This document shows positions 2,442-26,723 of a stretch of DNA of 32,000 nt, piece by piece. The DNA is from an uncultured Muribaculaceae bacterium. GTDB lineage: Bacteria > Pseudomonadota > Alphaproteobacteria > Rs-D84. The position numbers and the translations under genes are program-made. Numbering within the stretch: the first letter of the stretch is position 1; each line of letters starts with the position of its first letter. The notes beneath the pieces were generated by a model. The model saw only the letters and a program-made list of their open reading frames with translations. It had not been told where the DNA came from and made no database searches. The DNA is taken from positions 661,101-693,100 of the forward strand of contig OZ246409.1 of assembly GCA_965231035.1 (NCBI GenBank). The letters run 5' to 3'.

Positions 2442-4030
2442 TGGTTCAATATCTAGATAATAATAAAAATTCTGGCTTTAATCAATGGATGGCGGGCAAA
2501 CAAAAAACTGATGGAAAGCCTTCAAAGTTTTCAGGATTTTTTTGGTGGATGATAATATTTTTATTGGCCTGGTGGTTGTTTTCAACTTGGTTTGCACTAA
2601 AGAAAGATGTTGAAACAAAAACAACTGAACCAACAGTTGTTGAAAATGTTTCACACGTTCCTGTAACAAATATAAACAATGATAAAGTTTCTGCAAATGT
2701 TCAAGGTCTGCGTGTTTCTAAAATAGAATTGAAAAGTTATAAACAAGATAGAAAACACAATGAAGGCAAAAATATTTCTTTGTTAGCAGGGGATAAGGAA
2801 TTCGCAGAAGTAGGTATGCTGGCAAATGGTACAACTGCGCCAACCGCTGAAACTGTTTGGAAATCAAACGGATCAGATGGTCAAAAAGTAATGACTTGGC
2901 GTAATGGTGACGGGGTTAACTTTAAACGCACAATCATTGTGAAAGATTATGTTGTTACAATCACAGATGAAATTAAAAACAACAGCAGTCGTGATTTTTC
3001 TTTTGCACCTTATGCCCTTATGAATCGTGAAGCAGCAAAAACAAAGGCTGTTTCGGTTGCAACTGGCGGGGTTGCGTTTGTAAATTCAGATATTGAACGT
3101 AATGGATGGGGAAGTCTGGATAAAAAATCATACGTTTATCAAACTACGAATGGTTTTACAGGATTTGAAGATCAGTATTGGGAAACGATTGTTGGTATAA
3201 ACAGTCCCGATCAAACAATACGTATGAAAAAAACAGGTAATTTTTATCAAACAGAGGCTTCTGCTGGACCAGTACAAGTTTCTGCGGGTAAAACTGTAAG
3301 CATAGAAACAAAACTGTTCGCTGGTCCACGTGATTCAAAAATATTGGCCGGGGCTGGTATAACAGGTTTGTCAGATACAATGGATTATGGTTGGTTCTGG
3401 TTCTTGTCCCAGCCGATGCTTTGGGCTTTGAACAGTTTGAACGTTTTGGTTATGAATTATGGTTTGGCAATAATATTGCTGACGTTGGTTCTGCGTGGAT
3501 TAATGTGGCCTTTGACACGTAAATCTTATACTTCAATGGCGGCAATGCAAAAAATGCAGCCAGAAATGCAAAAAATTCAAAAACTGTATGCGAATGATAA
3601 AATGCGTTTGCAAATGGAAATGATGAAGTTGTACCAAACACACAAGACTTCACCAATGTCCGGATGTCTGCCAATGTTATTGCAGATTCCAATTTTCTTT
3701 GCATTATATAAGGCTTTGTTAATTTCTATTCCAATGCGTCAGGCTGGTTTTTTATGGATTCAAGATTTATCTTTGATGGATCCTTACTTTATATTGCCAA
3801 TATTGATGGGTGCAACAATGTGGTGGCAACAACATCTGCAAGGAACAGGTGCCCAAGGTGGTGATAAAAATGATCCTATGGCACAAACCCAGAAAGTTAT
3901 GAAGTGGATGCCGATATTGTTCACAGCAATGTTTGCATGGATGCCGGCTGGGTTAGTTCTGTATTGGACCGTTTCAAATATGTTTGGAATAATGCAGATG
4001 TATATTATAAAAAGAAAAATGAAAAAATAA
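2441..4030 (+). CDS. yidC: membrane protein insertase YidC (Gram-negative type with large periplasmic P1 domain)
   Basis: 529 aa with an N-terminal TM, a ~300-aa periplasmic domain, and a conserved C-terminal core (YGLAIILLTLVLRGLMWPLTRKSYTSMAAMQKMQPEMQKIQKLY...). The start overlaps the lspA stop in TAATG. Confidence 0.92.
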   Translation: MVQYLDNNKNSGFNQWMAGKQKTDGKPSKFSGFFWWMIIFLLAWWLFSTWFALKKDVETKTTEPTVVENVSHVPVTNINNDKVSANVQGLRVSKIELKSYKQDRKHNEGKNISLLAGDKEFAEVGMLANGTTAPTAETVWKSNGSDGQKVMTWRNGDGVNFKRTIIVKDYVVTITDEIKNNSSRDFSFAPYALMNREAAKTKAVSVATGGVAFVNSDIERNGWGSLDKKSYVYQTTNGFTGFEDQYWETIVGINSPDQTIRMKKTGNFYQTEASAGPVQVSAGKTVSIETKLFAGPRDSKILAGAGITGLSDTMDYGWFWFLSQPMLWALNSLNVLVMNYGLAIILLTLVLRGLMWPLTRKSYTSMAAMQKMQPEMQKIQKLYANDKMRLQMEMMKLYQTHKTSPMSGCLPMLLQIPIFFALYKALLISIPMRQAGFLWIQDLSLMDPYFILPILMGATMWWQQHLQGTGAQGGDKNDPMAQTQKVMKWMPILFTAMFAWMPAGLVLYWTVSNMFGIMQMYIIKRKMKK

Positions 4031-4062
4031 AAAAATGTCGTAAGAAATTACGACATTTTTTT
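4031..4062. terminator. bidirectional terminator between yidC and the convergent 120-aa ORF
   Basis: A6-atgtcgtaa-GAAA-ttacgacat-T7. The stem is a perfect 9 bp with a GAAA tetraloop, and A/T runs flank both sides. The stop of the minus-strand ORF (4048-4050) lies in the 3' arm. Confidence 0.7.
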
Positions 4063-4410
4063 AAAATATTTATACAGTTGGTCTGGTGTCAATATCCATG
4101 GATTTTTTATCCCTAATGCCTGTTTGGTGAAACCAACACAAGTCAGAGAATATTTAATATGGCATAGAGTAGAGATGTTTTCTTGTTTGTGTTTTACTTG
4201 TATAAAAACCCAATCATTATTTTCTAATATTTTTAAATCTCGGGACTTTAATAAAAATATATCAATTTTTCTAATAGACGGATTTAATAGTAAATATTTT
4301 TGTTCTTTGCCGGTTGTTTTCTGCTGTATTAAAACTGCACAGTGACGGAATTTTTTGCAAAATATTTTAGGTATAATCTTGGAAGTTTTTTCTGAAAAAC
4401 CAATTATCAT
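4048..4410 (-). CDS. hypothetical protein (120 aa, basic, no recognisable family)
   Basis: A 120-codon open frame in very AT-rich DNA, where stops are frequent, ending exactly at a bidirectional terminator. The SD is weak (GAGA). I recognise no motif. Confidence 0.45.
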   Translation of the reverse strand: MIIGFSEKTSKIIPKIFCKKFRHCAVLIQQKTTGKEQKYLLLNPSIRKIDIFLLKSRDLKILENNDWVFIQVKHKQENISTLCHIKYSLTCVGFTKQALGIKNPWILTPDQLYKYFKKMS

Positions 4411-4470
4411 TTTTTTCTCGTTTAATTAGTGTCAGTACTATCTGTCAGGTAATACTGACATATTAGTAAT

Positions 4471-4818
4471 TCAGTCTATCCAGCCTTTATTCTTAGCAGC
4501 TTTTTCGATAGTTTGCATTGCGGTGTTCCAAATTGCAGCTTTTCGGTTTTCAGACCATATATGTTGATGAGGAGAGCGTTTTTTATCTCCAAATTCTTTC
4601 ATAACATCCAGTTGTTCACCGGTTAATAATCCAGATAAATAAAGTTTGGTAATTAATGTTTCTACGTCCAGTATTTCACATACTCGCCTGGTTGATGAAA
4701 TATTACGTTGGGAAAACCCATTCCTGATTTGTCTGGAATATAAAAACCAGAACCATAGTTGTTCTGCATTGTGGAACTTTTCCGACAATGAAACATTTTT
4801 TACTGTTTGCGCAGTCAT
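4471..4818 (-). CDS. hypothetical small protein (115 aa), possibly a DNA-binding regulator
   Basis: ATG is preceded by GGAGAG at 6-nt spacing. Trp-rich N-terminal helix (AEQLWFWFLYSRQIR). The segment LLTGEQLDVMKEFG loosely resembles sigma70-region-4/LuxR-type HTH, which is a weak impression only. Confidence 0.6.
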   Translation of the reverse strand: MTAQTVKNVSLSEKFHNAEQLWFWFLYSRQIRNGFSQRNISSTRRVCEILDVETLITKLYLSGLLTGEQLDVMKEFGDKKRSPHQHIWSENRKAAIWNTAMQTIEKAAKNKGWID

Positions 4819-4970: not shown

Positions 4971-4996
4971 AAAAAACAGCCGCATTGCGGCTGTTT
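4971..4996 (-). terminator. rho-independent terminator after virB10
   Basis: aaacagccg / cggctgttt 9-bp stem (4974-4982 / 4988-4996). On the minus strand it is followed by T6 (complement of A-run 4971-4976). It lies 20 nt past the virB10 stop. Confidence 0.7.
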
Positions 4997-5016: not shown

Positions 5017-7359
5017 TTATTTTATTGGCGGAAAGCAATCACCACCGCTACTGGGGCAACAGTTGAATCCTTGATCTTTCATGTCTGTGTAAACTTCGCC
5101 AGTACAACATCCATTTGTATCTGGTGCAGAACCGTCTTCACATGTTATTGCTTTCGTCTGAGTTTTTTCTCCACTCTCAAACGGATCCTTTATAGTTCCA
5201 TCTTCATTATATTTCAAGCCCAATACCTGTTCGTTATACGCTTGTGAATAAACAGGTTTACCGTTACTGTCTGTTGTTAACATTTTTTGTGTATTACCTT
5301 TGTCATCTTTGGTCGTCAAACTTGTTGCCTGTTGATTTTGATAAACAGCTTCTTGTTTCGCATTATTTTTTGCCTGATATTGGCTTGATTGGCAATAAAA
5401 TACAACAGTGCGATAATCCAATCCATCTTTTTGAATGGTTGCAGCACTATTTGCAGTAACTCCGCCTTTACCGTCGCAATATTTACTTAGATCAAAAGAC
5501 CTGACTTGACCAACCAGAGTATCTGGTTCTTTGACCCCAACTGTAATATCACGTTCAACTGTTGCTGCATAGCTTGAATCATAGTCGGTAATTGAACATT
5601 TCTTCCCGCTGTCCAGGCCACAGGTCACAATCAAATCATTTGGTGAAAATACAGTGATTCTGGTTCCAGCAGAAATAGAGAACGGTGGAACAGTATTATC
5701 AATCATATCAACCAATAATTTCTGGGCAACCGTATTCCATGCTTTGATAATTTCATTCTTGGCAAGCTCACTGGAACGAACCTGACCAGTTTGTGTAACA
5801 GTATTATTATCCAAATCAATTTGATTAACGAATTTGTCAGATATAGGTGCAATCATATTTACGGCGGCCGGTACAGCTGCTGTTAACAATGGCATAACGA
5901 ATTGTTCCATATAATCTGTGCTGCCGCGCCCCGGAACACCAGTTCTTCCCTGGGCATCAGCCGAGAAAGGTTTACCACCCATAAAGTTAAATTCCACGCC
6001 ATCTGGTCGAACGAAACGATACCAATCAATATTAACGCGACCGATGGATTTATAAGGTCCAGGCATATCTTGGTCTGAAACATATCCCAACATCATTGTT
6101 CCAGCTGGAATTATAATTGTGCGACCATTATCCGAATAAACATTTCTATCGACTGTTGCAGTAACTGGCAGACGTGTTTCCTTGGCAACTGCACGTATTT
6201 CAGAAACGATTGTGGCAGGAATTGGTTTATACTGACGCAACACAAATGTGCGGTCGTATGGTTTGCTGGAAACGGTTGCCTCGGACCCATAAAGTTTTGA
6301 TGATGGCAACCTTTCACTTTCAGGTTTTGCAGCAGAAATCACATGAGAAGATTTTCCATATGTCGCCGTTGCAAGTTCTTCCGAGCTTAACTGACGTGCT
6401 TTGTTCACTGTGCGGTTGTCAGCTGGGTTAGATAATTGAGGTATCGTACCGTTTGATATATTTCCATAACCAATATGTTCGGCATCTGTTCCAATTTTTC
6501 TGGATACATCTTTGATATCTGTAATTATGCCATTGTCAGGATTATAGATGCCAGTTGGTAAAACACAATCTTTGTCCGAAAATGGATGAAATTTATAAGT
6601 ACCTTTTTCTGGTTTTATCCAGCCGATTTGCTGACCAGTTATATTATACCCAGGAAAAGAAAAATCAGAACAAGCCTCAGAATTCATTTTAGTATTATCT
6701 GGTTTTGGTGCAGAAATAATTTCTTTATCCAAGGCAGGTTTAATATCTTCTTTTTGACCATCATCAGCAGAAACAAAAGGATCAGCAGGTGAAATAGATT
6801 CAATTTCATCCTTTATTTGTGGTTTTGTTTCTGCAACCGGTTCAGGTTTAATTTCTTTTTTTTCTGTTGCCCCAACTGCAATTGGAATCTTTTCCGTGCG
6901 GTTCATTTTCGCAGGTTGGTTTGCGCCACGCCAATCAATAAATAACGATACAGCCATAACATCCTGCTCTGCCTTTGGCGCATAATCCATACTGATTGTG
7001 CAAGAAATATTATTATTTATTTGACCGATGTTTTCACAAGTTGATTTTTTTGATAACCCGGGGATTTCTTTTGATAAACGAACCGTATCAATCTTTACAG
7101 GTACATTGGAAGATATTACAAACCGTTGGCTTTTTGCCTCGCCAATATTGGTTGTTGCCCAATCAAGTGAGTCAGGATCAATATGTAAAACAGCCTGGAC
7201 GTTTTCATTTGATTCAATGTTCGTCTGCTTTTTATCGCCACGAAATAACAAGGTAAGCAAAATAAGAACAACAATAAACGCAGCAGTCAGCAAAAGCCAT
7301 TGTACATGCTTTGGAGTGTTTTGTTTTAATTCTGAAAATTGTGTCTTTAGATTTGCCAT
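5017..7359 (-). CDS. virB10: VirB10/TrbI-family type IV secretion core protein, enlarged (780 aa) by extra N-proximal and C-terminal domains
   Basis: Short cytoplasmic N-terminus plus one TM (WLLLTAAFIVVLILLTLLF) and a Pro/Glu/Lys-rich linker. A TrbI-type barrel follows: IPATIVSEIR..LPVTATVDRNVYSDNGRTIIIPAGTMMLGYV..GRVNIDWYRFVRPDGVEF...ADAQGRTGVPGRGSTDY. It sits 7 nt downstream of virB9. Confidence 0.8.
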   Translation of the reverse strand: MANLKTQFSELKQNTPKHVQWLLLTAAFIVVLILLTLLFRGDKKQTNIESNENVQAVLHIDPDSLDWATTNIGEAKSQRFVISSNVPVKIDTVRLSKEIPGLSKKSTCENIGQINNNISCTISMDYAPKAEQDVMAVSLFIDWRGANQPAKMNRTEKIPIAVGATEKKEIKPEPVAETKPQIKDEIESISPADPFVSADDGQKEDIKPALDKEIISAPKPDNTKMNSEACSDFSFPGYNITGQQIGWIKPEKGTYKFHPFSDKDCVLPTGIYNPDNGIITDIKDVSRKIGTDAEHIGYGNISNGTIPQLSNPADNRTVNKARQLSSEELATATYGKSSHVISAAKPESERLPSSKLYGSEATVSSKPYDRTFVLRQYKPIPATIVSEIRAVAKETRLPVTATVDRNVYSDNGRTIIIPAGTMMLGYVSDQDMPGPYKSIGRVNIDWYRFVRPDGVEFNFMGGKPFSADAQGRTGVPGRGSTDYMEQFVMPLLTAAVPAAVNMIAPISDKFVNQIDLDNNTVTQTGQVRSSELAKNEIIKAWNTVAQKLLVDMIDNTVPPFSISAGTRITVFSPNDLIVTCGLDSGKKCSITDYDSSYAATVERDITVGVKEPDTLVGQVRSFDLSKYCDGKGGVTANSAATIQKDGLDYRTVVFYCQSSQYQAKNNAKQEAVYQNQQATSLTTKDDKGNTQKMLTTDSNGKPVYSQAYNEQVLGLKYNEDGTIKDPFESGEKTQTKAITCEDGSAPDTNGCCTGEVYTDMKDQGFNCCPSSGGDCFPPIK

Positions 7360-7366
7360 AATTTTA

Positions 7367-8839
7367 TTACTGTATCCTGACCACGTGGCAGCTGGTGCCC
7401 GAGAATTTCAACATTTGATCACATAGTTTTTGTGCAGTGTCAATATCTGACAATGGACCAATTCGTAAACGATACAAACGTGCAGTAGCGGAATCTGAAC
7501 CCAGTTCGCCAACACCATGTTCATCAACTGCAAAGAATACCATACTCTTATAAGGTGTTAAAATTCCTTTGCCGTCTTCTCCGCTGAATTTAGCCATCAA
7601 ATCTGTCCAATAATCGTTCAATGCCTTGACCGAGGTATCAGATTTTAATTCCACAGCAACACCAGATTGATTACTGGATATCAATGGAATATTTGTTTGT
7701 GGTAAATAAGCCCCAGCAGTATTTCTTTCTGTTGGTAACATATTTACACCTTGGGTTGAACCACTGTAAGAACCAGAAACTGAAGAAACATTTGATGTAC
7801 CATAATTTACAGTTGGTGCAACACCATAACCATTTGTTGAAACAACAGCAGCACCGGTTCCATTATAAGTTACGTTATTCAAAGATTGTCCAGAAGACAT
7901 GCTTTGGGCAACGTTTGCTTCGGCCAATGCCATTACACTGTTTGTGTCTGTGATCAAGAATGGTTTTTCACGTTTCTTGATACAAACAATTCTTTGACCT
8001 GAACGCAATATCATATCGCCAACAGCTTCGACAATTAATAATCTGCCGTTTTCACCGTCTGTGCGGAAACCAACCGGGCTTTCGCCACCTTCGACCAACA
8101 GCGATACAACTGGGCGTTGGGTCATTGCAATTACTTTGTCACCGAAATCAATGTATGTGAATATTCTATCACGCCATACACGTTCTGGTGCAATTACGTA
8201 ATCATCTGGATTTGGAACAAATATATCCAAATCAAAACGGAATTCACTGGGGTCGATTTTCATAGATTTAATCCAACCATAATCTTCGCCATCAACACCG
8301 ACAGAAGAACTGCCAGTTGAAACTTTTTTAAATATAGAATTCATTCCCGCGGATTGTGATGCAGAACCAGAAGAACTTGGTAAACTAGAATTGCCATCTA
8401 AAACAATATCAACCTGGGAATATGTTATTTCACTGCTGTTCGCAGGTTCACTGCGTAAATAGAAGATGTATTTATTTCCGGACTTTCCGGTAACAATCAA
8501 ATTTGTATCTGCACCTTGGTTACTGCCAGCAGGTGTTACATACATTGAACGACCATTTTTCTGTGGATCGAATTCAAACAAGTCTTGGTTTCCAACAATA
8601 CCGTCCGCAATCTGTTCACCTTCGGGCAGGTTAATCATAGTGACCATCCCGTTGCGTAATTTAACAGGCAGAACACTGCCCGCAGTCCATGTCAATTGTG
8701 CGTATCCAGGCTTGGTACTGCCAGATGCCATATTTGCATTTGGATTATCCCAAGCATCTTGAACACCTTCGGCAAACGACGAACTTTGCAAACAAACCAA
8801 TGCAAGTATGAAAAAAATCGATAATTTTGAAAATTTCAT
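7367..8839 (-). CDS. virB9: VirB9/CagX/TrbG-family type IV secretion outer-membrane core protein with a C-terminal SPOR-like domain
   Basis: Signal peptide MKFSKLSIFFILALVCLQSSSFA|EG. VirB9 N-domain: MVTMINLPEGEQIADGIVGNQDLFEF...DTNLIVTGKSGNKYIFYLRSEP. VirB9 C-domain: RIFTYIDFGDKV...RPVVSLLVEGGESPVGFRTDGENGRLLIVEAV. The start is trimmed from the ORF-track 8917, which overlapped virB8, to the ATG at 8839 preceded by AAGGAA. Confidence 0.8.
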   Translation of the reverse strand: MKFSKLSIFFILALVCLQSSSFAEGVQDAWDNPNANMASGSTKPGYAQLTWTAGSVLPVKLRNGMVTMINLPEGEQIADGIVGNQDLFEFDPQKNGRSMYVTPAGSNQGADTNLIVTGKSGNKYIFYLRSEPANSSEITYSQVDIVLDGNSSLPSSSGSASQSAGMNSIFKKVSTGSSSVGVDGEDYGWIKSMKIDPSEFRFDLDIFVPNPDDYVIAPERVWRDRIFTYIDFGDKVIAMTQRPVVSLLVEGGESPVGFRTDGENGRLLIVEAVGDMILRSGQRIVCIKKREKPFLITDTNSVMALAEANVAQSMSSGQSLNNVTYNGTGAAVVSTNGYGVAPTVNYGTSNVSSVSGSYSGSTQGVNMLPTERNTAGAYLPQTNIPLISSNQSGVAVELKSDTSVKALNDYWTDLMAKFSGEDGKGILTPYKSMVFFAVDEHGVGELGSDSATARLYRLRIGPLSDIDTAQKLCDQMLKFSGTSCHVVRIQ

Positions 8840-8867
8840 GACAGTTCCTTTATTAACTTTCTCTGCT

Positions 8868-9581
8868 TTAATTAATTGTTTCTGAAATCCATTTAAATTC
8901 CAGAGGATCTTCTTCACCGGATTCCACTTTGTATTCGGAAACCCGAATTCCCAAAGGATTATCCAGCCGATCAGTCCATTTTATTTTATTTCCTAATTCC
9001 AATTTCAGTATGATTGTATAATCTTTTTGATACTTCTGTCCATCACTATTTGTGCAGAAATATCTAAAACTTACCGCATAGGTATCCAACTCACCGGTTT
9101 TCTTATTTTCTCTGTGTGGGGCAATTCCTGTAAACTCAACAGGGCAATGAAATTCAAAATCTGGAACCTCGTCCATATATGCCGTCCACATCTGGGTTTT
9201 TGCAAAATTTGCATATACCTCTGGCGTGCTCCACATATAAACGGTTCCGTCTTCGCTGGCAGACCATTTCTTTTGCATAACACCGGCATTTGGAATAATT
9301 TCGTTTCTGGCCTTGATATATTCTTTTATAAAAGCCTGTTTGTAAAACTCGATATTTTCTTCGTTTGGTGAAAAAGATGAAAGTTTGATTTCTAAATCAC
9401 TTCTGGGTTGAGTGGTCAAGAAAAAGACTTGGGTTTTGTTCAAAGGATACATTTTTACCAATGTTACAACAAGAACAATCACAACAACCAAAGCTGCTGA
9501 AAAAACAAAAGTCATCAATCTGGATAGCAAAATCGGTGGTTCTACACTTTCTGACACTGGCCTATCTCTCCCTTCGTCCAA
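8868..9581 (-). CDS. virB8: VirB8-family type IV secretion inner-membrane protein
   Basis: About 230 aa with one N-terminal TM (FVFSAALVVVIVLVVTLV) and a periplasmic domain with FIKEYIKARNEI. The conserved VirB8 NPxG motif lies near the C-terminus (DNPLGIRVSEYKV). The start is uncertain: TTG at 9581, GTG at 9557 (preceded by GGGAGAG), or ATG at 9515. Confidence 0.75.
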   Translation of the reverse strand: MDEGRDRPVSESVEPPILLSRLMTFVFSAALVVVIVLVVTLVKMYPLNKTQVFFLTTQPRSDLEIKLSSFSPNEENIEFYKQAFIKEYIKARNEIIPNAGVMQKKWSASEDGTVYMWSTPEVYANFAKTQMWTAYMDEVPDFEFHCPVEFTGIAPHRENKKTGELDTYAVSFRYFCTNSDGQKYQKDYTIILKLELGNKIKWTDRLDNPLGIRVSEYKVESGEEDPLEFKWISETIN

Positions 9582-9749
9582 AGATTGTAGAAAAAAAACG
9601 CATTGTCACGCAAGTGAAAAATTGAATATTTTCAAAGATAAAATTATAAAATATCAGCTTTTTGTTAATTTTGTGAAAGAACTGTGTAACAAATTTTATT
9701 TTAATTATTGTTTTTACTGGGCTAAGTGTTTTTTTGTTTAACTTTTCGC

Positions 9750-9778
9750 TTGCGCTGGTTTATTTAAAGCTTTATAAT
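9750..9778 (+). promoter_or_regulatory. putative sigma70 promoter for tRNA-Trp-secE-nusG
   Basis: TTGCGC (9750-9755), exactly 17 nt, TATAAT (9773-9778), about 120 nt upstream of tRNA-Trp. Confidence 0.45.
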
Positions 9779-9899
9779 ACTTTCCGCTTGATTTTTAGTT
9801 ACAGTGTGCTATCTTGGCACGAGTTAATGATTTAAAAAGCGGTGTTTTTGGCAGATTTTGCAGTGATTTTAACTGGCTATTTCTGTCGGGGAAACTATT

Positions 9900-9973
9900 A
9901 GGGGCATAGTTCAACGGTAGAATATCGGTCTCCAAAACCGCGGATGAGGGTTCGATTCCTTCTGCCCCTGCCA
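9900..9973 (+). tRNA. trnW: tRNA-Trp (anticodon CCA)
   Basis: Manual cloverleaf fold. Acceptor AGGGGCA/TGCCCCT, anticodon loop CTCCAAA, T-arm GAGGGTTCGATTCCTTC, encoded 3' CCA. It has the canonical position just upstream of secE. Confidence 0.92.
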
Positions 9974-10057: not shown

Positions 10058-10237
10058 ATGAAAAAATTGCTTGAATATATTAAATCGGTAAGAAGTGAAT
10101 GGTTCAAAATTGTATGGCCTTCACGCGATACAGTTATTCGCACAACTGGTATGATTTTTTTATTTTCCGCAGCAGCAGCATTGTTTTTCTTTTTAACAGA
10201 CAGTGTGTTGCACACTATTGTTGGTTGGATTTTCTAA
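10058..10237 (+). CDS. secE: preprotein translocase subunit SecE (short single-TM form)
   Basis: 59 aa: MKKLLEYIKSVRSEWFKIVWPSRDTVIRTTGMIFLFSAAAALFFFLTDSVL. The K.V..E..KV.WPsr motif plus one TM match SecE, and the gene lies between tRNA-Trp and nusG. The ORF-track start at 9944 overlaps the tRNA and is rejected. Confidence 0.88.
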   Translation: MKKLLEYIKSVRSEWFKIVWPSRDTVIRTTGMIFLFSAAAALFFFLTDSVLHTIVGWIF

Positions 10238-24734: not shown

Positions 24735-26723
24735 TTAATCTGTATCGGTTGCAGCAGTGACAACATCGTCTTCTGAAGCGGCACCTGTAATACTTGTACA
24801 TGTTCTTATGTAAGAACTGCAAGCGTTTCTGGCAGAAGCCTTGGTAACGGTTGATGTGCTTGAATATCCGTTTGTAGACAAGCATGATGCAACATCGCTT
24901 AAGCAACTTTCTGCATATTTAGACAGAATTTCGTCTTGTGAATTCTTAATCACAGCCAAAGTATTCTGCAAGTAACCCTTAATAACATCATTGCTCTTGT
25001 TAAATGTTTTGTTTGTACCTGTGTATGTAAAATCCTGACACTGGTTTAAAACAGATATGCACATACCATAATTCTTACTGTCACTGCTGTCATTATAGCC
25101 AATTTTATTTTGTAGATACACAATCATGTTTGTTACAGGTGTTACAGCAGTAATAGAATTTGTTACATATTCTCCAATATTTCCAGTACCCCAAGCATTA
25201 TTGGTACCAGTTGCATAATTCCATGTAGCATAAATATTGCTTCCGGATGTTGATGTAGAAGTAATATTTCCACCTGAAACACCAGGCTGACTGCCAACAA
25301 CAACTTTGCCATTTACAATGTACTTACCAGTTGGATCCAAGCAGTTTTCATAATCACTGCCGCAAACGAAATCGTCTTGCATACAAGAATCCAAAGCGCT
25401 GATGCAAGAACGCATATCTGTGTAGGTATTCTTTTTCTGAACAACCAACAATCTGGCTTTTTGCAAGAAGCTTTGAGCATTTGTTAAAGTTGTTGTCATC
25501 TGAGAATTTGCATCAGTCAAGCTGCGTTCATAAGCTATACACTGTTTGTCGATTTCCAAATCATAGCTGTTGGTGATAATTGTTGTATCAACACCTTGTG
25601 ATTTGCAAGAATCCAAAACGGCTGCTTTGCAACGTGCAGTTGCTGTCTTGTAAAGTTCAGCACCACGTTGATTGCTGATGCTGTTCGCATTATCGCCACC
25701 CAAAAATTCTGATAAATCAAATCCTGAGTTATCAAAACTCATACTGGAAAGACTGGATAATAAATCTGTGGATGAACTTGTGCTGCTGGTAGCATTTGCA
25801 CTTTTTACATCCAATATCAGACTTTTGATTTTATCCAAATCTGTTTTTAACTGAGTTGTATCTGACTTACCTTGCATTGCAGCTTCGGCCTCAGTCTGAG
25901 TGAACAATGAAGAAACTTCGTCTTTACTTAAACCTATGTACTGAATCTTCTGAGCAACGTCTTGTAAATTCTGAGTTGCTTCTTTCAATGCAGCTTCGGT
26001 CTTGGCGTAATTTTTAATATTTGCAGAACAGCTGCAACGTCCTTGATTGTCATCCAAAACATTACAGAAGTTATCCATACATTGTGTAAACTGAGCCTTG
26101 CAATAATCGGATGTTTGGGCAATTTCGTCCATCGAAGATACCGAAGTAGTGTTGGCACTTGAAGAGCTGGTTGTAGTTGCAGCACGAACGGTTGTGGTTG
26201 GTGCACGTGAAACAACGCTGGAAGTCGAAGTAGGTCTGACACTGACACGACCAATGTAAAGAGGTGTATTAACAGTATCTGTTTGAGTCAGGCTGGCAGC
26301 ACGAGAAGAATTAGCAGAAGATGTAGTGTTCCTACGTGATACAACATTTTGATTTGTTTGTCCGGCTGTGCTGCGAGAAGCAGTTGTTGTGGAATAATCG
26401 CGTGCACGAACTGTATCTGCAGTTCTGTTTGAAACAACGCGTTGAGTAGTATTTCTTTCGGTTGCAGAATACGAGGTTGAAGGTACAGCACGGCTGGCAG
26501 CACGTGCGGTTATTGTGTGCTGAATAGATTTTTCAGGAATAACTGGATTTACAGGTTGCGCCTCTTGCACATCTTGTACATTTTGATCTTCAACTGGTGC
26601 AGTGTAATCAGCTGTACTATCGTCAGTATATTCAACCGAGTCATCGTAATAAATCGGTGCAACTTCTGCAAAAGCGGGCATAACTAGTAAACCACTAAGT
26701 ACTGCAATAAATCTTTTCATCAA
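24735..26723 (-). CDS. secreted Ser/Thr-rich, cysteine-repeat protein of unknown family (662 aa)
   Basis: Sec signal peptide MMKRFIAVLSGLLVMPAFA|EV, an acidic stretch, and a ~130-aa S/T/R/N low-complexity region. The remaining ~455 aa are helical-looking and hold all 18 Cys by my count, mostly as CxxxLxxC pairs. Confidence 0.8.
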   Translation of the reverse strand: MMKRFIAVLSGLLVMPAFAEVAPIYYDDSVEYTDDSTADYTAPVEDQNVQDVQEAQPVNPVIPEKSIQHTITARAASRAVPSTSYSATERNTTQRVVSNRTADTVRARDYSTTTASRSTAGQTNQNVVSRRNTTSSANSSRAASLTQTDTVNTPLYIGRVSVRPTSTSSVVSRAPTTTVRAATTTSSSSANTTSVSSMDEIAQTSDYCKAQFTQCMDNFCNVLDDNQGRCSCSANIKNYAKTEAALKEATQNLQDVAQKIQYIGLSKDEVSSLFTQTEAEAAMQGKSDTTQLKTDLDKIKSLILDVKSANATSSTSSSTDLLSSLSSMSFDNSGFDLSEFLGGDNANSISNQRGAELYKTATARCKAAVLDSCKSQGVDTTIITNSYDLEIDKQCIAYERSLTDANSQMTTTLTNAQSFLQKARLLVVQKKNTYTDMRSCISALDSCMQDDFVCGSDYENCLDPTGKYIVNGKVVVGSQPGVSGGNITSTSTSGSNIYATWNYATGTNNAWGTGNIGEYVTNSITAVTPVTNMIVYLQNKIGYNDSSDSKNYGMCISVLNQCQDFTYTGTNKTFNKSNDVIKGYLQNTLAVIKNSQDEILSKYAESCLSDVASCLSTNGYSSTSTVTKASARNACSSYIRTCTSITGAASEDDVVTAATDTD

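What the first reader, a model, noticed from the sequence alone, without database searches (positions are those of the whole stretch)
5017..9581. Stand-alone virB8-virB9-virB10 operon: a T4SS core-complex module without ATPases, pilin or channel genes nearby
**Seen in sequence**
- Three tightly packed minus-strand genes have clear VirB8 (NPxG motif), VirB9 and VirB10/TrbI signatures.
- The operon begins in a promoter region shared divergently with tRNA-Trp-secE.
- It ends at a good rho-independent terminator 20 nt after virB10.
- Nothing resembling virB1-B7, virB11 or virD4 occurs anywhere in the 32 kb.

**Established knowledge**
- In canonical VirB/D4 loci, and in the scattered rvh loci of Rickettsiales, virB10 is followed by virB11 and virD4.
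- As far as I recall, the best-known B8-B9-B10-only operon is comB8-10 of the Helicobacter/Campylobacter DNA-uptake system.
- As I recall alphaproteobacterial synteny, the slot upstream of tRNA-Trp-secE is normally occupied by tuf. The operon sits there, embedded in core housekeeping DNA.

**Inference**
- Either this is one island of a dispersed T4SS, or it is a periplasm-spanning scaffold reused for something else, such as DNA uptake or envelope tethering.
Basis: partly seen in the sequence, partly recalled or inferred. Interest (0 to 1): 0.7.

Follow-up and report, generated by a model that had tools for sequence, protein, structure and literature searches.

The report
Chromosomal virB8-virB9-virB10 secretion-core operon
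Three genes for the envelope-spanning core of a type IV secretion machine sit alone, strongly conserved, among housekeeping genes of a tiny-genome gut bacterium (Candidatus Enterousia), and are most likely one island of a scattered secretion system that this partner-dependent organism relies on.

Summary
Three packed minus-strand genes encode VirB8, VirB9 and VirB10 homologues, all above Pfam thresholds. A terminator follows virB10, and I found no other T4SS gene in the 32 kb or in about 20 kb of flanks.

The window comes from the Candidatus Enterousia / Rs-D84 clade, uncultured gut Alphaproteobacteria with genomes under 1 Mb. The operon occupies the same slot (secE/tRNA-Trp | B8-B9-B10 | orf115-orf120 | yidC) in about 55 species. 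VirB9 is better conserved than YidC.

VirB9 carries a C-terminal SPOR (peptidoglycan-binding) domain. VirB10 has two extra periplasmic domains and a Cys-rich tail.

The same VirB9-SPOR T4SS subfamily occurs in several forms:
- complete conjugative clusters on Sphingomonadales plasmids;
- complete Cag-like clusters;
- sister gut lineages with B8-B9-B10 plus singleton virB11 and virB2 genes scattered in housekeeping DNA.

The best reading is therefore one islet of a dispersed, vertically inherited, rvh-like T4SS (confidence about 0.6). I could not show that the Enterousia clade itself has VirB4, VirB11 or VirD4, so an ATPase-less scaffold remains possible (about 0.2-0.25).

I class it as a new variant of a known kind, of moderate interest.

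The parts
8868..9557 (-). virB8 homologue. It is 229 aa from GTG 9557; a TTG at 9581 would give 237 aa. It has an N-terminal TM helix, a periplasmic VirB8 domain and an NPLG motif at residue 200.
   Evidence: Pfam VirB8 at E 6.6e-13. The gene is called as 229 aa in identical public contigs. GGGAGA lies upstream of the GTG, and the NPxG motif was located.
7367..8839 (-). virB9 homologue with a C-terminal SPOR domain (490 aa). The order is signal peptide, CagX/VirB9 N- and C-domains (about residues 48-290), a Ser/Gly/Asn-rich linker, then the SPOR-like domain.
   Evidence: Pfam CagX at 7.2e-22, and SPOR at 20.0 bits against a cut-off of 21. SPOR scores above the cut-off in relatives (26.6 bits; precomputed PF05036 hits). 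The protein is 70-100% identical across the clade.
7370..7657 (-). SPOR-like domain of VirB9 (about residues 395-490), with two invariant cysteines.
   Evidence: The model shows beta-alpha-beta-beta-alpha-beta topology at pLDDT about 70-80. Foldseek hits the RlpA SPOR domain (TM 0.70-0.71 normalised to the target, E 0.03-0.04) and DedD. The domain is conserved in every lineage.
5017..7359 (-). virB10 homologue (780 aa), about twice the canonical length.
   Evidence: Pfam TrbI at 5.4e-19 over residues 374-575 only. Full-length homologues go down to about 41% identity.
6856..7197 (-). VirB10 extra domain 1 (residues 55-168), an ASH/PapD-like beta-sandwich with the invariant pair C108/C120.
   Evidence: Model pLDDT above 90. 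Foldseek finds ASH/PapD-like domains at E 4e-6. NCBIfam gives a weak choice-of-anchor-D hit. The cysteines are invariant.
6460..6678 (-). VirB10 extra domain 2 (residues 228-300), beta-rich, with the invariant pair C230/C265.
   Evidence: Model pLDDT about 86. The columns are invariant across distant members.
5632..6240 (-). VirB10 barrel (residues 374-576). It includes the two-helix antenna (residues 482-553, coordinates 5701-5916), which is nearly invariant within the clade.
   Evidence: Pfam TrbI. The best solved-structure matches are ComB10 and CagY. The model shows helices 482-508 and 530-553. Invariant columns are listed.
5020..5148 (-). Cys-rich C-terminal tail of VirB10 (C..CC..CC..CFPP).
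   Evidence: It is invariant in the clade and modelled at pLDDT about 81-85. The same module is a free-standing 111-aa membrane-anchored ORF in L035.
4971..4993 (-). Intrinsic terminator ending the operon: 7-bp GC-rich stem, AAT loop and T6.
   Evidence: Read directly from the sequence. An equivalent hairpin plus T-run is present in 55 of 55 related loci.
9558..9899 (.). Divergent intergenic region between virB8 and tRNA-Trp/secE. It presumably holds the operon promoter; there is a sigma-70-like match on the minus strand at 9677-9648.
   Evidence: Sequence. The promoter scan shows no enrichment over shuffled sequence, so the promoter site itself is only a candidate.
9900..9973 (+). tRNA-Trp (CCA), upstream of secE (10058-10237) and nusG.
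   Evidence: ARAGORN and Rfam. Gene calls in identical contigs.
4048..4818 (-). orf115 (4471-4818) and orf120 (4048-4410). Both are cytoplasmic-looking proteins of unknown function that follow the operon in nearly all loci of the clade that extend that far. They probably form a separate transcription unit.
   Evidence: The synteny holds in about 47-51 related loci. There are no Pfam, NCBIfam, PHROG or PDB matches. They are absent from sister lineages.

Best explanation
The operon encodes the periplasm-spanning core of a type IV secretion system. That system has become a fixed, vertically inherited chromosomal organelle of the genome-reduced gut Alphaproteobacteria of order Rs-D84 (Candidatus Enterousia and relatives).

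The inferred roles of the three proteins are as follows.
- VirB8 is the bitopic inner-membrane assembly factor.
- VirB9 and VirB10 form the outer-membrane core complex.
- The VirB10 two-helix antenna forms the outer-membrane pore.
- The VirB9 C-terminal SPOR domain, on a long flexible linker, anchors the complex to peptidoglycan.
- The two extra disulfide-bonded periplasmic domains of VirB10 replace the usual proline-rich spacer.

The three genes form their own transcription unit, ended by a conserved terminator. They are most likely one islet of a dispersed, rvh-like T4SS whose ATPases, pilin and channel genes lie elsewhere in the roughly 0.9 Mb genome. The organism probably uses the machine to interact with the partner or host cells it depends on. 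The substrate is unknown; protein or DNA transfer or uptake are all possible.

Shown here: the identity of the three proteins, their domain architecture, the operon boundaries, the fixed position, the strong purifying selection, and the existence of scattered virB11 and virB2 in sister lineages. Inferred only: the remaining parts in the Enterousia clade itself, and the function.
For: - Family assignments for all three proteins.
- The source lineage is Candidatus Enterousia / Rs-D84. Its genomes are about 0.75-1.0 Mb and its lifestyle is thought to be partner-dependent (PMC12306168).
- The synteny is identical in about 55 species-level genomes.
- Median identity across the clade is 70% for VirB9, 50% for VirB10 and 47% for VirB8, against 59% for YidC and 62% for LspA.
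- The terminator after virB10 is present in 55 of 55 loci.
- The VirB9-SPOR plus long-VirB10 pair defines a subfamily that includes complete conjugative clusters on Sphingomonadales plasmids: relaxase-B2-B3-B4-..-B8-B9-B10-B11-D4.
- The same subfamily includes complete Cag-like clusters.
- In sister gut lineages, VirB11 (E about 1e-75 to the plasmid VirB11) and a TrbC/VirB2 pilin lie within 5 kb of the module, interleaved with LptF/G and TsaB.
- Elsewhere VirB11 is a lone gene 40-50 kb away on the same contig, or sits alone in other housekeeping contexts. This matches the Rickettsia rvh 'archipelago', which has single-gene islets (PMC2653234).
- Retention of VirB8, an inner-membrane component with no role in a pure outer-membrane tether, argues for a full trans-envelope machine. 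This last point is inference.
Against: - No VirB4, VirB11, VirD4, VirB6, VirB2, VirB3 or relaxase was found in the window, in about 20 kb of extra flank, or within +/-10 kb of the module in about 55 Enterousia-clade species.
- None of the 120 best homologues of the sister-lineage VirB11 could be assigned to the Enterousia clade. I checked this by contig identity, longest-contig length and composition. That list was truncated at about 64% identity.
- The Enterousia locus has also lost genes that accompany the module in its closest relatives: the VirB7-like lipoprotein, two bitopic proteins and the secreted c3 protein. That pattern fits further reduction.
- The only genome survey of Rs-D84 that I could read does not mention secretion systems at all.
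Confidence: 0.6

Rival explanations
1. ATPase-less repurposed scaffold. In the Enterousia clade the rest of the T4SS has been lost. VirB8-VirB9(SPOR)-VirB10 survives as a peptidoglycan-anchored complex spanning both membranes. It would act as a passive or otherwise-energised conduit or envelope tether, for example for taking up metabolites or DNA from a partner cell, or for holding the outer membrane to the wall.
For: - No other T4SS gene was seen near the module in about 55 species or in 52 kb of this genome.
- The clade has shed the locus-linked accessory genes kept by its nearest relatives.
- The Cys-rich tail is fused onto VirB10 in this clade.
- The genomes are extremely reduced and lack standard transporters (PMC12306168).
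- No Enterousia VirB11 appeared among the listed VirB11 homologues.
- Conservation is very strong, so the module is not decaying.
Against: - No T4SS core is known to work without VirB4 (established knowledge of T4SS).
- VirB8 is retained.
- Sister lineages with the same module keep VirB11 and the pilin.
- Absence was tested over only about 6% of the genome, and the homologue list was truncated.
Confidence: 0.22
2. ComB-like DNA-uptake machine. The module is the outer-membrane part of a competence T4SS that imports DNA. That would suit an organism unable to make nucleotides.
For: - ComB10 is the best solved-structure sequence match, at E 6e-8.
- NCBIfam scores ComB10 at 61.6 bits, nearly equal to VirB10 at 66.9 bits.
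- JGI annotates several VirB9 homologues as 'ComB9'.
- Rs-D84 lacks nucleotide biosynthesis.
Against: - The nearest complete relatives are conjugative plasmid systems with a relaxase and VirD4, at 38% VirB9 identity and E 1e-45. That is far closer than ComB9.
- ComB also needs ComB4, ComB6, ComB2 and ComB3, none of which was seen.
- No ComEC was examined.
- This is a sub-case of the dispersed-T4SS reading that differs only in substrate and direction.
Confidence: 0.1
3. Remnant of an integrated conjugative element. The three genes would be a decaying, non-functional fragment.
For: - The closest conventional relatives are plasmid-borne conjugative systems.
- The module lies next to a tRNA gene.
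Against: - The reading frames are intact in every one of about 55 species and the position is fixed.
- VirB9 is more conserved than YidC.
- There is no compositional anomaly.
- No integrase, repeats or relaxase are present.
- The terminator is conserved.
- The module lies on the 5' side of the tRNA, not at its 3' end.
Confidence: 0.02

Closest known systems
Rickettsiales vir homologue (rvh) T4SS 'archipelago' (Gillespie et al. 2009, PMC2653234)
   Same: Both are chromosomal, vertically inherited P-type T4SSs in a reduced alphaproteobacterial genome. In both, the genes are split into islets embedded in housekeeping DNA, including single-gene islets (virB2, virB1, virB4b). The sister lineages here show the same pattern for virB11 and virB2.
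   Different: - In rvh, virB8-B9-B10 stays linked to virB7, virB11 and virD4 in one islet, and B4, B8 and B9 are duplicated. Here the operon stops at virB10 with a terminator.
- VirB9 here carries a SPOR domain, and VirB10 is about 780 aa with ASH-like domains and a Cys-rich tail.
- By sequence the module is nearer to Sphingomonadales plasmid systems. Plasmid hits from the Holosporales-type endosymbiont Paracaedimonas reach only about 26% identity.
- The other components have not been demonstrated in Enterousia.
Conjugative VirB/D4-type T4SS of Sphingomonadales megaplasmids (Sphingosinicella sp. BN140058 p1; Erythrobacter aureus YH-07 plasmid)
   Same: - This is the nearest conventional relative: VirB9 is 38% identical at E 1e-45, and the order B8-B9-B10 is the same.
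- VirB9 is also long (430 aa), and its C-terminus aligns to the end of the SPOR domain.
- A VirB7-like 'PCAC' lipoprotein is shared with the intermediate lineages L030 and L035.
   Different: - The plasmid system is complete (relaxase, B2, B3, B4, B5, B6, B11, D4, TopB) and mobile.
- Its VirB10 is about 530-550 aa and lacks the N-terminal ASH domain and the Cys-rich tail.
- The window has only B8-B9-B10 and sits in core chromosomal DNA.
Helicobacter pylori ComB (comB6-10 plus comB2-4) and Cag (CagX/CagY) systems
   Same: - ComB10 and the CagY C-terminus are the best solved-structure sequence matches to the VirB10 barrel.
- ComB keeps B8-B9-B10 in one operon, apart from its ATPase operon (established knowledge).
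- Relatives of this module include Cag-like clusters with giant VirB10 proteins.
   Different: - Similarity is confined to about 120 residues of the barrel, at E 1e-7 to 1e-8.
- To my knowledge no SPOR domain has been described in ComB9 or CagX.
- ComB and Cag each have a VirB4 ATPase.
SPOR-domain proteins (FtsN, DamX, DedD, RlpA)
   Same: The C-terminal ~95 residues of VirB9 have the same fold class and match Pfam SPOR. The model matches the RlpA and DedD SPOR domains. The domain has two conserved cysteines.
   Different: Here the domain is fused to a T4SS outer-membrane core subunit rather than to a division or lytic protein. Binding to denuded glycan has not been tested.

Membership tests
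VirB8 family (PF04335) | Bitopic protein with an N-terminal TM helix and a periplasmic NTF2-like VirB8 domain, scoring above the Pfam gathering threshold and carrying an NPxG motif. | tested here: met
   49.4 bits against a cut-off of 23.2, covering 193 of 213 profile positions. NPLG lies at residue 200. No significant match to solved VirB8 chains by sequence alone: E 0.2-0.6.
VirB9/CagX family (PF03524) | Secreted protein with the two VirB9 beta-sandwich domains, scoring above the Pfam threshold. | tested here: met
   78.6 bits against a cut-off of 34.2, covering nearly the whole profile. TrwF matches at E 1.4e-5. Foldseek matches the TrwF N-terminal domain. A signal peptide is visible in the sequence.
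VirB10/TrbI family (PF03743) | N-terminal TM helix, periplasmic spacer, and a C-terminal beta-barrel with a two-helix antenna. | tested here: met
   69.2 bits against a cut-off of 35. The TM helix and two long helices at 482-553 appear in the model. The barrel fold itself was modelled with low confidence.
SPOR domain (PF05036) | RNP-like beta-alpha-beta-beta-alpha-beta domain scoring above the Pfam threshold; binds denuded peptidoglycan. | tested here: inconclusive
   The window protein scores 20.0 bits against a cut-off of 21. Orthologues score above the cut-off (26.6 bits; precomputed hits). The topology fits, and Foldseek matches RlpA SPOR at TM 0.7 with a weak E-value. Glycan binding cannot be tested here.
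Complete type IV secretion system | A VirB4-family ATPase, the one component regarded as universal to T4SSs. | not testable with these tools
   None was found in the window plus flanks (about 52 kb), nor within +/-10 kb of the module in about 55 related species. The rest of the roughly 0.9 Mb genome could not be read.
Complete type IV secretion system | VirB11 and/or VirD4 ATPases, the VirB6 channel and the VirB2 pilin. | tested here: inconclusive
   These are absent locally in the Enterousia clade. VirB11 and VirB2 are present as scattered genes in sister lineages. No Enterousia VirB11 was found among the 120 listed homologues, but that list was truncated.
Rickettsiales rvh T4SS | Orthology to the rvh components, and the islet C arrangement virB9a-B8a-B7-B8b-B9b-B10-B11-D4. 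| tested here: not met
   There are no duplicates, and no B7, B11 or D4 in the operon. The nearest relatives are Sphingomonadales plasmid systems. The resemblance is in organisation, not in orthology.
ComB DNA-uptake T4SS | ComB10/ComB9/ComB8 equivalogs together with ComB4, ComB6, ComB2 and ComB3. | tested here: not met
   The NCBIfam ComB10 equivalog scores 61.6 bits against a cut-off of 300. No ComB4, ComB6, ComB2 or ComB3 was seen locally.

The most novel reading that the evidence does not exclude
In the Enterousia clade the T4SS has been pared down to VirB8-VirB9(SPOR)-VirB10 alone. This would be a peptidoglycan-anchored, double-membrane-spanning core complex that works without any T4SS ATPase, pilin or VirB6 channel. 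It could serve as a conduit or attachment organelle through which a bacterium with a genome under 1 Mb and few transporters obtains metabolites or nucleic acids from a partner cell. That would be the first T4SS core complex shown to have an ATPase-independent function.
Probability: 0.22. Interest if true: 0.85.

Novelty: new variant of a known kind. Interest (0 to 1): 0.5.

Why it matters
Rs-D84/Enterousia are widespread, uncultured gut bacteria with genomes under 1 Mb. They cannot make amino acids, nucleotides or lipids, and how they obtain these is unknown. A T4SS core that is kept at a fixed chromosomal site in about 55 species, and that is conserved better than YidC, is a strong candidate for the organelle behind their dependence on a partner.

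The work defines an undescribed T4SS subfamily marked by a VirB9-SPOR fusion and a VirB10 with ASH-like domains. The subfamily spans a full series of states:
1. conjugative plasmids;
2. complete chromosomal clusters;
3. scattered islets;
4. a bare B8-B9-B10 operon.

That series is a natural experiment in how mobile secretion systems are domesticated and dismantled, parallel to the Rickettsia rvh system but independent of it.

If the Enterousia clade truly lacks VirB4 and VirB11, that would overturn the view that the core complex functions only as part of an ATPase-driven machine.

Tried and rejected
1. **Linking a VirB11 to the Enterousia clade.**
   - The last homologue search used a sister-lineage VirB11. 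It returned 38 sister-lineage hits, 74 hits from Cag-like systems and 8 singletons.
   - The contexts I examined belonged by composition to other lineages.
   - The result is inconclusive because the list stops at about 64% identity.
2. **VirB11-profile scan of JGI metagenome contigs.** This was meant to reach below that cut-off. The tool failed with 'unexpected contig name' and the cap was consumed.
3. **The same profile on viral contigs.** It gave one hit, another Cag-like cluster.
4. **Literature.** Searches for VirB8/9/10 with SPOR, RF32 with T4SS, and orphan VirB8-10 found nothing relevant. The 2023 Enterousia paper is not held, and the 2025 paper has no held supplements.
5. **Fission/fusion test.** I tested whether the secreted c3 protein of sister lineages equals orf115, orf120 or the VirB10 C-tail. 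hhalign found no relationship.
6. **Function of orf115 and orf120.** Pfam, NCBIfam, PHROGs and PDB profile searches all came back empty.
7. **Hidden VirB7-like mini-ORF.** I searched the window and the Enterousia loci by profile and by motif and found none.
8. **Structure models.**
   - The VirB9 model was poor (mean pLDDT 41) because the permitted alignment was too shallow. Only its SPOR and N-terminal domains were usable.
   - The VirB10 barrel was also poorly modelled as a monomer.
9. **ICE-remnant reading.** I rejected this because of the conservation and fixed synteny.

Full report
**1. The observation**

The window carries three adjacent minus-strand ORFs at 8868-9581, 7367-8917 and 5017-7359. 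They score above the Pfam gathering thresholds for VirB8 (49.4 bits), CagX/VirB9 (78.6 bits) and TrbI/VirB10 (69.2 bits). NCBIfam agrees, with VirB10 at 66.9 bits and ComB10 at 61.6 bits.

Shine-Dalgarno sequences and public gene calls place the true starts at GTG 9557 (VirB8, 229 aa) and ATG 8839 (VirB9, 490 aa, with a signal peptide). The genes are therefore separated by 28 nt and 7 nt. VirB8 has an NPLG motif.

A GC-rich 7-bp hairpin followed by T6 lies about 23 nt after the virB10 stop, at about 4993-4971. tRNA-Trp and secE-nusG-rplKAJL-rpoBC diverge from virB8 across about 340 nt.

Every other sizeable ORF in the window is housekeeping or unknown. The identifiable ones are a Na+/H+ exchanger, LspA, YidC, PlsX, MraZ, EamA, an APH-family kinase, FabH and an M3 peptidase.

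**2. Where it comes from**

Identical proteins occur on public contigs of up to 716 kb. A scan of species-representative genomes returned 80 loci. The close relatives include MAGs named Candidatus Enterousia sp., together with many 'Alphaproteobacteria' or 'Rickettsiales bacterium' MAGs from ruminant, horse, human, mouse and termite guts.

Enterousia belongs to the uncultured order Rs-D84. Its genomes are about 0.75-1.0 Mb and lack biosynthesis of amino acids, nucleotides and lipids. They also lack respiration and standard transporters, and the bacteria are thought to depend on a partner organism (PMC12306168).

**3. A fixed, strongly selected module**

Across about 55 species-level loci the arrangement is the same: rpoB...nusG-secE-tRNA-Trp | virB8-virB9-virB10 | orf115-orf120 | yidC-lspA.

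Median identity to the window proteins:

| Protein | Median identity |
|---|---|
| VirB9 | 70% |
| LspA | 62% |
| YidC | 59% |
| VirB10 | 50% |
| VirB8 | 47% |

The C-terminal VirB9 domain and the VirB10 antenna region are almost invariant.

All 55 loci have a strong hairpin plus T-run within 120 nt after virB10. The hairpin sequences differ between species, so the operon boundary itself appears to be maintained. I ran no shuffled control for this count. Base composition shows no island signature. This is not a decaying ICE fragment.

**4. Unusual anatomy**

*VirB9.* It carries a low-complexity linker and then a C-terminal domain of about 95 residues.
- The domain matches Pfam SPOR. The score is 20.0 bits against a cut-off of 21 here, and above the cut-off in orthologues.
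- It is predicted as beta-alpha-beta-beta-alpha-beta.
- It matches the RlpA and DedD SPOR structures, with TM about 0.7 normalised to the RlpA target and weak E-values of 0.03-0.04.
- It is present in every lineage that has the module.

*VirB10.* At 780 aa it is about twice the usual size. In order it contains:
1. a TM helix;
2. an ASH/PapD-like beta-sandwich with an invariant Cys pair (pLDDT above 90; Foldseek E 4e-6);
3. an acidic linker;
4. a second Cys-pair domain;
5. the barrel, with two long antenna helices;
6. about 200 extra residues ending in a Cys-rich C..CC..CC..CFPP tail.

That tail is a discrete module. In locus L035 it is a separate 111-aa membrane-anchored ORF.

By sequence the three proteins are very far from solved T4SS components. 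The best matches are ComB10 at E 6e-8, CagY at 5e-7 and TrwF at 1e-5.

**5. What the relatives show**

This is the decisive evidence. The same VirB9-SPOR / long-VirB10 pair occurs in four states.

(a) *Complete conjugative clusters on Sphingomonadales megaplasmids.* The order is relaxase, virB2, B3, B4, B5, B6, a VirB7-like lipoprotein, B8, B9, B10, B11, D4. VirB9 is 38% identical at E 1e-45, far closer than ordinary VirB9s, and its C-terminus aligns to the end of the SPOR domain.

(b) *Complete Cag-like clusters in roughly 42-49% GC gut bacteria.* These have a 1530-aa VirB10, VirB11, TrbL/VirB6 and a 1138-aa protein. The N-terminus of that 1138-aa protein is homologous to the N-terminal region (TM helix plus ASH-like domain) of the long VirB10.

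(c) *Intermediate lineages L030 and L035.* Here VirB9 is 57-64% identical to the window's. The cluster is VirB7-like - X - Y - B8 - B9 - B10 - (tail) - c3.

(d) *A sister group of low-GC gut MAGs.*
- The module is B8-B9-B10 plus a secreted protein of about 95 aa (c3).
- It occurs in at least eight different housekeeping contexts, often next to an N-type ATP synthase operon.
- In six of these loci a VirB11 (E about 1e-75 to the plasmid VirB11) and a TrbC/VirB2 pilin lie within 5 kb, interleaved with LptF/G and TsaB.
- In another genome VirB11 is a lone gene 40-50 kb away on the same contig.
- Further VirB11 singletons sit in other housekeeping contexts.

This is the pattern described for the Rickettsia rvh 'archipelago', which has single-gene islets for virB2, virB1 and virB4b (PMC2653234).

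**6. What could not be settled**

In the Enterousia clade itself I found no further T4SS gene. I looked in the window, in about 20 kb of extra flank, and within +/-10 kb in about 55 species. The probes were the plasmid-derived set and lineage-specific profiles.

The 120 best homologues of the sister-lineage VirB11 contained none that I could assign to Enterousia, but that list stops at about 64% identity. Only about 6% of a roughly 0.9 Mb genome was visible, so absence is not shown.

**7. Interpretation**

The most likely reading (about 0.6) is that this operon is the core-complex islet of a dispersed, vertically inherited T4SS. That system would derive from an alphaproteobacterial conjugative system and would be used by a partner-dependent bacterium.

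The mechanism is inferred from the families. VirB8 nucleates assembly at the inner membrane. VirB9 and VirB10 build the outer-membrane complex, with the VirB10 antenna as the pore. The SPOR domain pins the complex to peptidoglycan. The ASH-like domains stiffen or extend the periplasmic span.

The main rival (about 0.22) is that Enterousia represents the end of the reduction series and has kept only B8-B9-B10 as an ATPase-independent envelope conduit or tether. A ComB-like DNA-uptake role (about 0.1) is a variant of the main reading. An ICE remnant is excluded.

**8. Novelty and score**

I found no description of a VirB9-SPOR fusion, of this long VirB10, or of a T4SS in Rs-D84. This is a new variant of a known kind. 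It is interesting for T4SS evolution and for the biology of an unexplained reduced-genome gut lineage, but on present evidence it is not a new kind of system. Interest 0.5. It would be about 0.85 if the ATPase-less reading were confirmed.

Noticed in passing
window 24735-26723 (-): A 662-aa secreted protein. It has a signal peptide, a long Ser/Thr-rich region and then a Cys-rich C-terminal half. There is no Pfam match beyond a spurious proline-rich hit. It is conserved in the identical public contig (661 aa in L104).
   Followed up: partly
window 4048-4818 (-): orf115 and orf120 follow virB10 in nearly all Enterousia-clade loci that extend that far, with orf115 at 55-77% identity. They are absent from sister lineages and have no match in Pfam, NCBIfam, PHROGs or the PDB. 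orf120 has invariant His23 and Cys91, which may indicate a small thiol enzyme.
   Followed up: partly
window 4028-4063: A 16-bp AT-rich perfect inverted repeat with T-runs on both sides lies between the convergent yidC and orf120. It looks like a bidirectional terminator.
   Followed up: no
L009-L035 (e.g. L010:12166-12525): In sister lineages a secreted protein of about 95 aa (c3: signal peptide, no known family) follows virB10 (in a few loci after one intervening small ORF), whatever the genomic context. It may be an undescribed core-complex partner. It is not related to orf115, orf120 or the VirB10 tail.
   Followed up: partly
L030:3635-3835, L035:5478-5651, L089:13802-14095, L090:13805-14110: A small lipoprotein with a lipobox and a conserved 'LK-(S/T)PCAC' motif sits in the virB7 position. 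It is shared by the Sphingomonadales plasmid T4SSs and two gut lineages. In L030 and L035 it is followed by two bitopic proteins of unknown family before virB8.
   Followed up: partly
L035:11651-11986: The Cys-rich tail that is fused to VirB10 in the window occurs here as a free-standing 111-aa membrane-anchored ORF. This is a fusion/fission event within the family.
   Followed up: yes
L091-L095, L106: A Cag-like T4SS cluster in roughly 42-49% GC gut bacteria. It encodes VirB8, a 566-aa VirB9-SPOR, a 1138-aa protein, a 1530-aa VirB10, VirB11, an 887-aa TrbL/VirB6 and a 1069-aa M23 peptidase. Several of the neighbouring large proteins have no family.
   Followed up: partly
L014-L017, L096, L102: The singleton virB11 is repeatedly adjacent to lptF/G and three conserved ORFs of unknown function (about 265-295 aa), in lineages where it is otherwise unlinked to the module.
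   Followed up: no
L009-L017, L022, L025, L026: In the sister group the module lies divergently next to an N-type ATP synthase operon (AtpR, gene-1, and alpha/beta/gamma/epsilon/a/b subunits).
   Followed up: no
L003 and L006 flanks: The D,D-carboxypeptidase (Peptidase_S11) about 9 kb from the module also carries a SPOR domain. SPOR-mediated wall targeting is therefore used more than once in these small genomes.
   Followed up: no
L013, L016, L035 (record titles): These contigs are titled 'uncultured Bacteroidales bacterium' but carry the alphaproteobacterial module and its synteny. They are probably mis-binned in the source MAGs.
   Followed up: no
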